This document shows, piece by piece, positions 45,936-62,122 of a stretch of 64,000 bases of DNA. The notes beneath the pieces are model-generated. The model searched no databases. It worked only from the letters and a program-made list of their open reading frames with translations, and had not been told where the DNA came from. The translations under genes and the position numbers were made by a program. The number at the start of each line of letters is the position of its first letter. Position 1 is the stretch's first letter. The DNA is from the human T2T-CHM13v2.0 reference genome, Homo sapiens, in NCBI RefSeq assembly GCF_009914755.1, contig NC_060929.1; one strand, written 5' to 3'.

Positions 45936-46873
45936 TTTTTTTATTTATTATACTTTAAATTTTAGGGTTCATGTGCACAACGTGCAGGTTAGTTACATAT
46001 GTATACATGTGCCATGTTGGTGTGCTGCACCCATTAACTCGTCATTTAACATTAGGTATATCTCCTAATGCTATCCCTCCCTCCTCCCCCCACCCCACAA
46101 TAGGCCCCGGTGTGTGATGTTCCCCTTCCTGTGTCCACGTGTTCTCATTGTTCAATTCCCACCCATGAGTGAGAACATGTGGTGTTTGGTTTTTTGTCCT
46201 TGCAATAGTTTACTGAGAATGATGGTTTCCAGCTTCATCCATGTCCCTACAAAGGACATGAACTCATCCTTTTTTATGGCTGCATAGTATTCCATGGTGT
46301 ATATGTGCCACATTTTCTTAATCCAGTCTATCGTTGTTGGACATTTGGGTTGGTTCCAAGTCTTTGCTATTGTGAATAGTGCTGCAATAAACATACGTGT
46401 GCATGTGTCTCTATGGCAGCATGACTTATAATCCTTTGGGTATATACCCAGTAATGGGATGGCTGGGTCAAATGGTATTTCTAGTTCTAGATCCCTGAGG
46501 AATCACCACACTGTCTTCCACAATGGTTGAACTAGTTTACAGTCCCACCAACAGTGTGAAAGTGTTCGTGTTTCTCCACATCCTCTCCAGCACCTGTTTT
46601 TTCCTGACTTTTTAATGATTGTCATTCTAACTGGTGTGAGATGGTATCTCATTGTGGTTGTGATTTGCATTTCTCTGATGGCCAGTGATGATGAGCATTT
46701 TTTCATGTGTCTTTTGGCTGCATAAATGTCTTCTTTTGAGAAGTGTCTGCTCATATCCTTCGCCCACTTGTTGATGGGGTTCTTTGTTTTTTTCTTGTAA
46801 ATTTGTTTGAGTTCATTGTAGATTCTGGATATTAGCCCTTTGTCAGTTGAGTAGATTGCAAAAATTTTCTCCC
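45936..46873 (-). mobile_element. 5'-truncated LINE-1 (L1PA4-like)
   Basis: ORFs 46152-46394 and 46503-46898 are L1 ORF2p C-terminus; poly-T at the left end; 13-bp TSD atgggcagacttt at 45923-45935 and 46877-46889. Confidence 0.97.
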
Positions 46874-48214
46874 TGAATGGGCAGACTTTCAACAACACAT
46901 CCTGTATTATTATAGCATTGCTCTGGGATAGTCTGATTCCTGATGTATATAATTACAGGGGCTGAAACAAACCTCAAATCTTTAGCGTGTCCCTGGCCTA
47001 CATAACCATTACCTAGACTTAGCTTTGGCTGAGGAGGAAAGTCCTTTACCGCAGCACTCCTGCTTTAATTTTGTAATTTCTCTCAGAGTCAAATTTACCA
47101 CGAGCCCTCAAAATACAGCGTAGACTTTGAGGGAAAGTAAAATGCCTGCTTTGTATGTTCACAGAGGTATTAATCCAGTGAGCTTCATGGTTCAAATCCA
47201 CTCATGCTTTTTTTTTTTTCTTCGTTGATTGAATCATACTTGCTTTTGGAGAAATGAAGTCTCACCATACAAATTATGTCTCTAGAGTACATTGGACACC
47301 TGGAGAATGCAATGACTTTCAGGCAACTCTGATGCCATGGGGCAGATTCAGATCATTTAGCAATTGACTGATTGCTTTCACCAACTGATAGCCAAGCAGC
47401 TTGAGAGTTAACGTAGAGATCCATGGTTGCAATACCGAAAAGGAGTGTTTGACTATATCCGAGTCATACATTCTCATTACTGTTGGAAACAAGGATTTAT
47501 ATTTGGCATATCTTTCAGTTACACACTATAAAAGAAGAAAATGTTGTGTTCATCCTGGCAGAAACAATATTTTCCCTTTTAGATTTATTTTAAAAATAAT
47601 TTACTGATTGAAAAGTCACACAGGTAAATCTTTTTTTATTATTATTTATTTATTTATTTATTTTTTTAACAGAAATAATGACATTCCCAGACCAGCAGAC
47701 TTCAGTTCAAAATGTTAAACCAGGCACCATCTGGAATATTCATTTTCAAACTCTATGCCAATGGGATCAAACCCTGGCATGCTCGACCTACATTTGATTA
47801 ACATTCTTTTAAAATAGAACTGGCAAATCAAAAGTCCTTTAGATTCCTGACCTTTGCTCAGAGATATAATGACAAGCTTGAGATGGCCTTTGCTATTTAA
47901 TACAGAAAACTTCGACACCTGGCTGCACAGTGAACATGGAATGGAAGAACGTGATATTTAATTATTAGCAAAGTCACACAATTGTCCAGAAACAAAGTCT
48001 ATGAGTTAAATGTATATTGGAGAGCTTAGAAATGTCACTTAAATGCTCCTAGTCAAAATTCCACTGCTTATTAATCTCACGTAGACATTCTCTTGCATGA
48101 GTTATTCACTATTCAATGTGGTGAGAGTTTGGGTTTCCTAATTGCATCCTAAGTTCTGTAAGGGTAAGGGAAGGTACACCCATTATATTATTTCTTCTAT
48201 AGCCTCCATCTCCT

Positions 48215-58406: not shown

Positions 58407-60319
58407 TAATAATGTTTTGTTGTACTAGAATGTTAGAAATATTGAACTTTGTTGGAAGCCTGGCCAACAAAATAGTATTTGTAAATATGATTGGGTGGCT
58501 GTGGGGAGAGGGATTAGGAAATTAGGGGGTGAGGTTTAACAATCACCAATGTGCACTTCTTATTTCCCTTAAAAAAATGAAGTTTCATAATATTAGGAAA
58601 CACAAATGTGTCATAAAATTAAGAATTGGAGAAAATGTTTACAATAGCTTTTCTACATTTAAAAAATGAAATCATGGAAGAACTGACTGATAGCTGTGCC
58701 TATATTTTTTGTGTGGACACTCTATATATACACTGTGGATAAATATGTACATATGTTAGCAGCAACTTTATAATTTGTACCTCCCTATTGATTCCAAAAT
58801 CAAACCAAAATAAAATTCTTTTTATTTTAAGAGAATGGATACTCTCTTACCAATCAAAACTGTACAGAAGTGAAAAATAATATCTGATCAGACATACTGT
58901 AGATTAAATTATTGCATAAAATATGCAAAATTTCAAATTATTTGATATTTCTAGAGCAATATATTACAGATAACAGTTCTACAGCTTAAAATTCTACAAT
59001 CTGGAAATAAAAAATAAAGAATTATGTAACTTTTTAAAAATTCACTTTATTGAATCATACATTTTGTTGAAAAAAAAGTTTACAAAGTTCAAAATGAAGC
59101 ACAGCAGACCTTTACAATACTAAAAAAATTAGTTCAGGAACACTCTTTTCAAACATTCCCACAGCCTTTCGCCTAAAATCTTATGAACAGTATGGCGGGA
59201 GGGGTGATGTCAAAGCAGAGTCCATTTCATTGTAAGGAGCCACCACACCAGCACACATCTTGCCGCGCTCAGGCAATTTCCCCTCACTCCTATCAAGCAA
59301 TCCTGAACAAGGTGGTTGTTCATTACTATGATTTCTTCTGTCCTTGATTTTGAATCCTTGAGGTATCAGTAAATAAAAACTCACAGATGCCTTGTCAGTC
59401 AGGATTCAAGTTAGGTTATTAAAGTGTGAAATCTTTCTCCACTGGAATGATTTGTTTTAATTTTGTGCATGTGTGTTATAGTCCCACTAAGTAGTTGTTA
59501 GTTAAAAGTTAAGAAGGACTTCTCAAGTGTCCTGCACGGTGCAGAAGAGACTCCATGGATATTGAAGGACTATAGTAAAAATCCAGAATGGGTCAGGGAT
59601 TTCTACATTGTATATTGATCAAAGCTGCCCAGTTTCTCTAGCACAACTCAATAGAAAAACCAATTCTCATTCTCTGTTTGTACCATGGCTGGCCATTGTG
59701 TTCTGTATGTTTTGATGGTCTGGAAGATATCTACAACTCTTTCACATCTCATTATTTCCAAAACAATGCTTAATATTATGAAGATTTTACTCCTTCCAAG
59801 CTCACATTACAGTGAACTGAAATGGGTCCATCTTGACCACAGTACTCTTTTGTTTTATGCACTTGGCCAATTAAGTCAATAAATCTTTTTCCAGACTTTG
59901 GCACTTTTTAATCTGGGCAGTCAGTGAACTGGAGCTGTCTCACTGTTCAGGACTGGCTGTCCTTGGCATCTATGACTTTAAATTCCCTTGTGATAAACTA
60001 TGGCATGTTGTACTCAGCCACAGGATCTACAACAAAGTACTGGTATCTTGTGGATTATTCTGCTGGCCAGTATTGGTGACATTTTTCTCTGCCCATTTCA
60101 CACAGCTTGGTGAAATTGTGTTTCCAGAGCATCCACTGGAAGTCCTCAGTGATCTCTTTCAAGGGTCCCTAATGTAAGCTTTCTATTGTCTTTACTCATC
60201 AATAAAACTGGCATTAATGTAACCAGATACTTCTACTCCATGGATAGGCTGCAAGTACAACCTTGTGGATTTATATGGTGTAATATTAACAAGGTGATTT
60301 TTGAAATTATTGCATGGAA

Positions 60320-62122
60320 ACACAGAGCCAAATCATGAGTGAACTCCCATTCACAATTGCTTCAAAGAGAATACAATACCTAGGAATCCAACTTACAAGG
60401 GATGTGAAGGACCTCTTCAAGGAGAACTACAAACCACTGCTCAACAAAATAAAAGAGGATACAAACAAGTGGAAGAACATTCCATGCTCATGGATAGGAA
60501 GAATCAATATTGTGAAAATGGCCATACTACTGAAAGTAATTTATAGATTCAATGCCATCCCCATCAAGGTACCAATGACTTTCTTCACAGAATTGGAAAA
60601 AACTACTTTAAAGTTCATATGGAACCAAAAAAGAGCCCACATTGCCATGTCAATCCTAAGCCAAAAGAACAAAGCTGGAGGCATCACGCTACCTGACTTC
60701 AAACTATACCACAAGGCTACAGTAACCAAAACAGCATGGTACTGGTACCAAAACAGAGATATAGACCAATAGAACAGAGCAGAGCCCTCAGAAATAATGC
60801 CACACATCTACAACCATCTGATCTCTGACAAATCTGACAAAAACAAGAAATGGGGAAAGGATTCCCTATTTAATAAATGGTGCTGGGAAAACTGGCCAGT
60901 CGTATGTAGAAAGCTGAAGCTGATCCCTTCCTTACACCTTATATAAAAATTAATTCAAGATGGATTAAAGACTTAAATGTTAGACCTAAAACCATAAAAA
61001 CCCTAGAGGAAAACCTAGGCAATACCCTTCAGGACACAGGCATGCGCAAGGACTTCATGTCTAAAACACCAAAAACAATGGCAACAAAAGCCAAAATTGA
61101 CAAATGGGATCTAATTAAACTAAAGAGCTTCTGCACAGCAAAAGAAACTACCATCAGAGTGAACAGGCAACCTACAAAATGGGAGAAAATTTTCGCAACC
61201 TACTCATCTGACAAAGGGCTCATATCCAGAATCTACAATGAACTCAAACAAATTTACAAGAAAAAAACAAACCCATCAACAAGTGGGCAAAGGATACGAA
61301 CAGACACTGCTCAAAAGAAGACATTTATGCAGCCAAAATACACACGAAAAAATGCCCATCATCACTGGCCATCAGAGAAATTCAGATCAAAACCACAATG
61401 AGATACCATCTCACACCAGTTAGAATGGCGATCATTAAAAAGTCAGGAAACAACAGGTGCTGGAGAGGATGTGAAGAAATAGGAACACTTTTACACTGTT
61501 GGTGGGACTGTAAACTAGTTCAACCATTGTGGAAGACAGTGTGGTGATTCCTCAGGGATCTAGAACTAGAAATACCATTTGACCCAGCCATCCCATTACT
61601 GGGTATATACCCAAAGGATTATAAGTCATGCTGCCATAGAGACACATGCACACGTATGTTTATTGCAGCACTATTCACAATAGCAAAGACTTGGAACCAA
61701 CCCAAATGTCCAACAACGATAGACTGGATTAAGAAAATGTGGCACATATACACCATGGAATACTATGCAGCCATAAAAAAGGATGAGTTCATGTCCTTTG
61801 TAGGGACATGGATGAAGCTGGAAACCATCATTCTCAGTAAACTATTGCAAGGACAAAAAGCCAAACACCACATGTTCTCACTCTTAGGTGGGAATTGAAC
61901 AACAAGAACACATGGACACAGGAAGGGGAACATCACACACCGGGGCCTGTTGTGGGGTTGGGGGAGGAGGGAGGGATAGCATTAGGAGATATACCTAATG
62001 TAAATGACAAGTTAATGGGTGCAGCACACCAACGTGGCACATGTATACATATGTAACAAACCTGCATGTTGTACACATGTACCCTAGAACTTAAAGTGTA
62101 ATAAAATATATATATATAAAAA
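60320..62122 (+). mobile_element. 5'-truncated LINE-1 (L1PA5-like), antisense within the pseudogene CDS
   Basis: ORF2p remnants at 60314-60772, 61042-61401 and 61656-61898; 17-bp TSD gaaattattgcatggaa at 60303-60319 and 62123-62139, which duplicates PTPRD codons LPCN(N)F. Confidence 0.98.

What the first reader, a model, noticed from the sequence alone, without database searches (positions are those of the whole stretch)
46191..61859. 367-bp perfect identity between two inverted, independently inserted L1PAs 15 kb apart
Seen: by manual comparison, 46191-46557 is the exact reverse complement of 61493-61859. Immediately outside this tract the copies differ every 10-20 bp. Each L1 has its own TSD pair, and the 3' ends look like different subfamilies (PA4-like vs PA5-like). 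The tract shares apparently non-consensus bases (ataaGtcatgctgCcataGagac; caacaaCgatag). Inference: recent non-allelic gene conversion between inverted repeats. These repeats could mediate a recurrent inversion of about 15 kb that flips the 3' portion of the PTPRD pseudogene. TSDs are in the ancestral arrangement on this haplotype.
Basis: partly seen in the sequence, partly recalled or inferred. Interest (0 to 1): 0.72.

Follow-up and report, generated by a model that had tools for sequence, protein, structure and literature searches.

The report
Gene-conversion scar between two inverted L1s
Two old, separately inserted L1 fragments 15 kb apart on human chromosome 5 share a perfectly identical 367-base stretch, likely because one recently overwrote the other during DNA repair; it is a clean example of a known process, and no inversion or gene effect is shown.

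Summary
Window 46191-46557 is the exact reverse complement of 61493-61859, inside a 930-column inverted L1 overlap whose 40 differences all lie outside the tract. Chance and shared L1 lineage are excluded. A 28-mer carrying three uncommon alleles occurs exactly only in these two copies, out of 6,690 genomic sites within 3 mismatches. Among 48 L1 copies not chosen on the tract, the closest pair differs at 9 tract positions. Each L1 keeps its own 17-bp target-site duplication and the PTPRD pseudogene runs collinearly across L1-B, so this haplotype is not inverted. Best explanation: recent non-allelic gene conversion (non-crossover repair) between the inverted copies (0.88). The event is younger than about 11-14% of the copies' divergence time. 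The donor is unresolved: lineage alleles favour L1-B, mutation load favours L1-A. The proposed 15-kb recurrent inversion is possible but unsupported: no entry at these coordinates among 373 inverted regions from 41 genomes on T2T-CHM13. It would flip only a dead pseudogene. New member of a known kind; modest interest.

The parts
45936..46872 (-). L1-A, 5'-truncated L1PA 3' end (ORF2 end, 3' UTR, poly-A), about 937 bp; PA4-like by recalled features
   Evidence: nearest other genomic copy 96% among 40 scored of 8,803 candidates
45919..45935 (.). TSD of L1-A, copy at the poly-A end
   Evidence: 17 bp, 1 mismatch to 46873-46889
46873..46889 (.). TSD of L1-A, copy at the 5' end
46191..46557 (-). 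Homogenised tract in L1-A (367 bp, ORF2 C-terminal region into the 3' UTR)
46405..46432 (+). Three-allele haplotype (46411, 46415, 46425) found exactly only here and at 61618-61645
61493..61859 (+). Homogenised tract in L1-B (367 bp), exact reverse complement of 46191-46557
60320..62122 (+). L1-B, 5'-truncated L1PA, 1,803 bp, broken ORF2, inserted antisense into the PTPRD pseudogene; PA5-like by recalled features
   Evidence: 5' part at most 95% to other copies among 40 scored of 11,723 candidates
60303..60319 (.). TSD of L1-B, copy at the 5' end
   Evidence: 17 bp, perfect
62123..62139 (.). TSD of L1-B, copy at the poly-A end
57696..60319 (-). PTPRD processed pseudogene, 3' part (annotated LOC100129526), with stops, frameshifts and an Alu near 58093-58406
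   Evidence: hub annotation
62123..62480 (-). PTPRD pseudogene, 5' part beyond L1-B, not in the RefSeq row; collinear with the 3' part
   Evidence: PF00102, E 5.6e-11; LAR-family PTPs, E 1.4e-39
46558..61492 (.). 14,935-bp segment that a crossover inside the tract would invert; not inverted on this haplotype
   Evidence: the inversion itself is inference

Best explanation
Two separately inserted, inverted L1 fragments that differ by about 7% elsewhere are identical over 367 bases, likely because a DNA break in one was repaired by copying the other 15 kb away (non-allelic gene conversion without crossover). Shown: separate insertions (own TSDs, different 3'-tail classes), exact identity with sharp edges, uncommon alleles shared only by this pair, flanks unexchanged. 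Inferred: a break or stalled fork in one L1, strand invasion of the inverted neighbour (most simply on the same or sister chromatid), copying of at least about 310 and at most about 367-391 bases, and non-crossover resolution. Inferred age: under 11-14% of the time the copies have been diverging, roughly under 2-3 Myr at a constant rate with recalled 18-20 Myr insertion ages, or under 8.5-10 Myr at the present-day pedigree rate. A human-lineage event is likely but not shown. Direction: B into A about 60%.
For: Exact 367 of 367 identity against 38 substitutions in 549 flank columns; 21-28 differences expected, P(0) at most 9e-10. The three-allele 28-mer is exact in 2 of 6,690 sites within 3 mismatches. 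Nearest third copy is 98% among 40 scored of 1,383 candidates. 1,128 pairs among 48 copies not chosen on the tract: minimum 9 tract differences, mean 22.5. No panel copy shares more than 5 of the 10 non-majority tract alleles (65 copies). Matching TSDs and a collinear pseudogene mean no net crossover (TSD test as in PMC2603318). Published mean tract of 250 bp, detected tracts 880 bp (10.1101/135152). Conversion is raised among neighbouring repeats within about 10 kb for Alus (PMC6598467, PMC8230782). Inverted arms resolve mostly as conversion: 56 conversions to 3 inversions in palindrome P6 (PMC3723533). Donor lean to B: tract allele 46514 is in 19 of 25 B-class copies and 1 of 12 A-class copies (p=2e-4), and 5 of 6 copies with all three lineage-type tract alleles are B-class.
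Against: No ape orthologue, second human haplotype or raw read was available, so the event was not polarised and artefact was not excluded directly. 15 kb is beyond the roughly 10 kb range reported for Alu pairs, and 7% divergence should slow conversion. Donor signals conflict: the tract carries only 4 rare alleles where B's flanks predict 13.4 (P=0.003) and A's predict 10.5 (P=0.02), and total non-majority load fits A better (likelihood 0.106 vs 0.015). A's two closest relatives (L032, L034) also carry the 46514 allele, which weakens it as a B marker. No PRDM9-type 13-mer (recalled motif) lies near either tract; the only hit in the window is at 41171.
Confidence: 0.88

Rival explanations
1. 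Inversion toggling. An inversion and a re-inversion with crossovers at the two tract edges swapped the tracts. An allelic crossover in the 15 kb between them with an unswapped haplotype then left both copies with the same tract.
For: L1 pairs do mediate inversions in humans: 8 LINE-1 inversions, median L1 similarity 97.1% (PMC9675761). Inversions between inverted repeats recur (PMC3961182). Orientation and spacing fit.
Against: It needs three rare events. Toggling alone swaps tracts and does not make them identical (inference). No inversion at these coordinates in 373 regions from 41 genomes. Before homogenisation the pair was about 93% identical over 0.93 kb, below the median for L1 inversions.
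Confidence: 0.05
2. Assembly or polishing artefact: reads from one L1 overwrote the other in T2T-CHM13.
For: Polishing can homogenise repeats; automated polishing made hotspots (10.1101/2021.07.02.450803). Reads could not be inspected here.
Against: It would need about 21-28 wrong bases at one locus in an assembly with QV 73.9 and 1,457 corrections genome-wide, of which about two-thirds of 993 small edits were homopolymer or dinucleotide fixes. Non-L1 flanks begin within about 255-320 bp of tract A, so long reads place uniquely (inference).
Confidence: 0.02
3. A real conversion that is private to the CHM13 line or its source haplotype (mitotic or very rare), not a population feature.
For: Zero differences fits any age down to the present. 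Only one genome was examined.
Against: Prior only: most alleles in one human genome are common or fixed (general population genetics, recalled). No direct evidence either way.
Confidence: 0.04
4. Shared ancestry or chance: both copies came from one L1 sub-lineage, and this part of ORF2 is slow-evolving.
For: Near-majority copies picked on the tract share runs up to 418 bp. Three of the 10 tract alleles (46514, 46425, 46269) do mark a sub-lineage.
Against: The tract is not slower in unselected panels (tract/flank rate 0.82-1.10). Alleles 46415 and 46411 are in 0 of 48 and 46333 in 1 of 48 unselected copies. The three-allele haplotype is unique to the pair. The 3' tails belong to different classes.
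Confidence: 0.005

Closest known systems
Non-allelic gene conversion between neighbouring transposable elements (Alu studies as summarised in PMC6598467 and PMC8230782; Aleshin and Zhi 2010 seen only through those citations)
   Same: Independently inserted repeats close together share non-diagnostic (private) mutations.
   Different: L1 rather than Alu; 15 kb apart rather than under 10 kb; one discrete 367-bp tract rather than a statistical excess.
NAGC between human gene duplicates (10.1101/135152)
   Same: Tract of a few hundred bp; all four rare tract alleles are AT-to-GC, in the direction of the reported GC bias (not significant, p=0.12).
   Different: Repeat fragments about 7% diverged, not young gene duplicates.
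L1-mediated inversions (RRMI, PMC2603318; TEMR inversions, PMC9675761; HsInv0341 between L1PA3 copies, PMC3961182)
   Same: Inverted L1PA pair 10-20 kb apart as a recombination substrate.
   Different: No chimeric L1s and no mismatched TSDs here; no inverted allele found in the tables searched; repeats shorter (0.93 kb overlap against 6.2 kb at HsInv0341).
Arm-to-arm conversion in Y palindrome P6 (PMC3723533)
   Same: Inverted repeats homogenised by non-crossover repair, with inversions rare.
   Different: P6 arms exceed 99.9% identity, are converted continually and have kilobase tracts; this is one autosomal tract between diverged L1s.

Membership tests
Non-allelic gene conversion tract | Local identity far above the flanking paralogous identity, with sharp edges | tested here: met
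   0 of 367 against 38 of 549; P at most 9e-10
Non-allelic gene conversion tract | Shared alleles are private to the pair, not family-diagnostic | tested here: met
   28-mer exact in 2 of 6,690 sites; two alleles in 0 of 48 and one in 1 of 48 unselected copies
Non-allelic gene conversion tract | The two loci arose independently (not a recent duplication) | tested here: met
   Different TSDs, lengths, 3'-tail classes and flanks
Non-allelic gene conversion tract | No exchange of flanks | tested here: met
   Each TSD pair matches; pseudogene collinear across L1-B
Non-allelic gene conversion tract | Non-reciprocal transfer with identified donor and acceptor, polarised by an outgroup | tested here: inconclusive
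   Lineage alleles favour B, mutation load favours A; no ape sequence available
Non-allelic gene conversion tract | Present in raw reads or other haplotypes | not testable with these tools
   Only the one assembly is held; it has no relatives here
L1-mediated NAHR inversion (RRMI/TEMR) | Inverted homologous L1 pair flanking the segment | tested here: met
L1-mediated NAHR inversion (RRMI/TEMR) | Chimeric elements with mismatched TSDs on the inverted allele | tested here: not met
   Both TSD pairs match on this haplotype
L1-mediated NAHR inversion (RRMI/TEMR) | An inverted allele exists in humans or apes | tested here: inconclusive
   No entry in PMC10150506 supplement (T2T coordinates), PMC13629690 tables or PMC9675761 supplements; ape tables unreadable or uninformative
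L1PA4 (copy A) / L1PA5 (copy B) | Best match to the named subfamily consensus in a repeat library | not testable with these tools
   No repeat library on hand; labels rest on recalled 3' UTR features. Shown only that A and B fall in different 3'-tail classes

The most novel reading that the evidence does not exclude
The conversion is a young, still-polymorphic allele that created a 367-bp perfect-homology seed in an otherwise 7%-diverged inverted L1 pair. Converted haplotypes would then invert the 15-kb interval far more often than unconverted ones, giving an uncatalogued inversion confined to converted haplotypes: a natural test of conversion priming rearrangement.
Probability: 0.1. Interest if true: 0.6.

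Novelty: new member of a known kind. Interest (0 to 1): 0.32.

Why it matters
It is a crisp, single-locus footprint of ectopic recombination between two old, diverged L1 fragments. It shows that sub-kilobase, 93%-identical L1 pieces 15 kb apart still exchange sequence. If polymorphic, about 20-28 clustered SNVs should appear or vanish together in pangenome data, and short-read calls there will be unreliable. It could test whether conversion-made perfect homology primes inversions. No gene function is at stake: the interval holds only a broken PTPRD pseudogene, and the nearest annotated genes lie outside the window.

Tried and rejected
Shared lineage or slow region: rejected. Recent duplication of one L1 from the other: rejected, as TSDs, lengths and flanks differ and identity is confined to the tract. 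Uniform-permutation p-value alone: judged too generous after one search showed 418-bp runs among tract-selected copies (561 bp, before five duplicate loci were all removed); replaced by tract-unselected panels. Donor assignment by group majority distance: uninformative (9 vs 10 differences). Donor by lineage alleles and by mutation load: conflicting. Idea that L1-B is itself a mosaic of lineages: not needed, since locus L127 shows a similar 5' pattern with a B-class tail, though B's 46855 allele stays atypical (1 of 21 B-class copies). GC-biased conversion: 4 of 4 rare tract alleles are AT-to-GC against 16 of 27 in flanks (hand count), p=0.12. Hotspot motif scan (recalled PRDM9 13-mer): one hit at 41171, about 5 kb from tract A. 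Literature on the locus: one search listed 25 of 29 papers, none with LOC100129526 and none on this repeat pair by title or abstract start. Supplement searches: negative; uninformative (no 'chr5' string in the files); unreadable. The hg38 position used (about 117.70-117.72 Mb) comes from a recalled gene coordinate, so those negatives are weaker. No genome-wide count of such tracts was possible.
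Full report
Observation. Window 46191-46557 is the exact reverse complement of 61493-61859 (367 of 367, no extension). The tract sits inside an inverted overlap of two L1 3' ends, 45944-46873 against 62105-61181. That overlap has 930 columns and 40 difference events, all outside the tract; the next-longest identical run is 53 bp. None of 200,000 uniform permutations reached 367. It is the longest non-simple exact repeat in the window.

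Anatomy. L1-A (45936-46872, minus strand) has a 17-bp TSD with one mismatch. L1-B (60320-62122, plus strand) has a perfect 17-bp TSD. Their 5' ends face each other. L1-B interrupts a PTPRD processed pseudogene. The piece beyond it (62242-62478, minus) matches Pfam PF00102 and LAR-family phosphatases, and its reading frame ends in the same residues with which the annotated part begins. Matching TSDs and this collinearity show the ancestral, non-inverted arrangement; the TSD test is the one used in PMC2603318 (passages). Three 3'-tail sites put A and B in different L1 classes. The PA4/PA5 names rest on recall.

Is it lineage or chance? I gathered other L1 copies from the same genome. The best third match to the tract was 98% (40 scored of 1,383 candidates). 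A 28-mer with three non-majority alleles is exact only in the two copies; 6,690 sites lie within 3 mismatches and only 2 others within 1. For an unbiased control I fetched 58 copies chosen on flanks only and kept the 48 that cover the tract; 10 were dropped as too short. Their 1,128 pairs differ at a mean of 22.5 and a minimum of 9 tract positions, and the longest identical run is 306 bp. The tract is not a slow region (tract/flank ratio 0.82-1.10), so 21-28 differences were expected and P(0) is at most 9e-10. Against this, copies chosen for closeness to the tract can share runs of 418 bp, but no panel copy carries more than 5 of the 10 non-majority tract alleles.

Mechanism. A non-reciprocal copy of one L1 into the other, without exchange of flanks, accounts for all of this in one step. 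The molecular route (break, invasion of the inverted neighbour, synthesis, non-crossover resolution) is inferred. The length fits the published mean of 250 bp and detected mean of 880 bp (10.1101/135152, passages). Shared non-majority alleles span 46204-46514, so the tract is at least about 310 bp if all are counted. If B's private base opposite 46190 arose afterwards, it could reach 46167. In Y palindrome P6, inverted arms gave 56 conversions to 3 inversions (PMC3723533, passages).

Age. Zero differences put the event within the last 11-14% of the copies' divergence (95% bound). That is 2.0-2.7 Myr if they are about 19 Myr old (recalled). The absolute bound is 4 Myr at 1e-9 per year and 8.5-9.9 Myr at the pedigree rate, where P(0 differences after 6.5 Myr) is 0.10-0.14. 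A human-lineage origin is likely, not shown.

Direction. Lineage-type alleles favour B as donor. 46514 is in 19 of 25 B-class and 1 of 12 A-class unselected copies; 46514 plus 46269 in 10 of 25 and 0 of 12; 5 of 6 copies with all three alleles are B-class. Of 18 usable carriers of the 46425 allele (19 fetched, 1 dropped), 10 were B-class and 1 matched A's tail. Mutation load favours A by about 7-fold: the tract has 4 rare alleles against 10.5 (A) or 13.4 (B) expected. A's two closest relatives also carry 46514. I lean about 60% to B into A. The low load is unexplained under either donor.

The inversion idea. A crossover in the tract would flip 46558-61492 (14,935 bp) and leave chimeric L1s with mismatched TSDs. 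L1 pairs do this: 8 LINE-1 inversions with median 97.1% similarity in three genomes (PMC9675761, passages), and HsInv0341 between L1PA3 copies (PMC3961182, passages). Here there is no sign of it. The supplement of PMC10150506 (373 inverted regions, 41 genomes, T2T coordinates; passages) has 22 'chr5' occurrences and none at 118.21-118.23 Mb. PMC13629690's tables (616-row inversion sheet; searches, part 2 of 43 read) and PMC9675761's supplements (one file unreadable) gave nothing at the approximate hg38 position, which I derived from a recalled coordinate. The ape tables could not be used (PMC12058530; PMC2603318). PMC12350158 was read only in passages; its inversion list was not searched. Unseen supplements could hold a rare inversion here. 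An inversion would move only a pseudogene already broken by stops, frameshifts, an Alu and L1-B.

Artefact. T2T-CHM13 has QV 73.9 and 1,457 corrections in all (10.1101/2021.07.02.450803, passages). Some 21-28 wrong bases at one locus with unique sequence a few hundred bases away is unlikely, but I could not see reads.

Comparison with what is known. Conversion between neighbouring repeats is established, mostly for Alus within about 10 kb (PMC6598467 and PMC8230782, passages; the primary paper was not held). PMC7827986 (passages) treats recombination as a cause of discordant L1 annotation. Searches (listings only) showed no paper on this pair. The locus appears undescribed in what I could search; the process is ordinary.

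Verdict. Real, very unlikely by chance, best read as a recent non-allelic gene conversion tract (0.88). New member of a known kind. Interest 0.32; about 0.6 if converted haplotypes prove to seed an uncatalogued inversion (probability 0.1).

Noticed in passing
window 62123-62480 (-): The 5' part of the PTPRD pseudogene lies beyond L1-B and is missing from the RefSeq span 57696-60319; it matches PF00102 and LAR-family phosphatases.
   Followed up: yes
window 46082 and 46180, and the paired bases in L1-B: Both L1s share a rare allele at 46082 (3 of 49 panel copies) and a CpG-decay allele at 46180 outside the tract; possibly an older or longer conversion.
   Followed up: partly
window 46191-46557: The tract has fewer rare alleles (4) than either copy's flanks predict (10.5 or 13.4), and all four are AT-to-GC; unexplained, GC bias not significant.
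   Followed up: partly
window 1534-1570 and 5240-5276: 37-bp exact direct repeat in non-masked sequence, 3.7 kb apart, bracketing the L1 at 3934-4967; could be a long TSD or a duplication scar.
   Followed up: no
window 29769-30270: Alu with an internal tandem duplication of about 195 bp (91.6% identical, 66 bp exact at 29845/30037).
   Followed up: no
window 3934-4967: A third, older L1 3' end, 84-85% identical to both A and B, with no long identical tract (longest 40 bp).
   Followed up: partly
window 63040-63663: Old L1 fragment inverted relative to L1-B's 5' part (66% identity), about 2 kb away.
   Followed up: no
window 62480-62600 (-): Sequence just upstream of the pseudogene resembles an MST/THE1-type LTR (recalled resemblance, sequence; not tested).
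   Followed up: no
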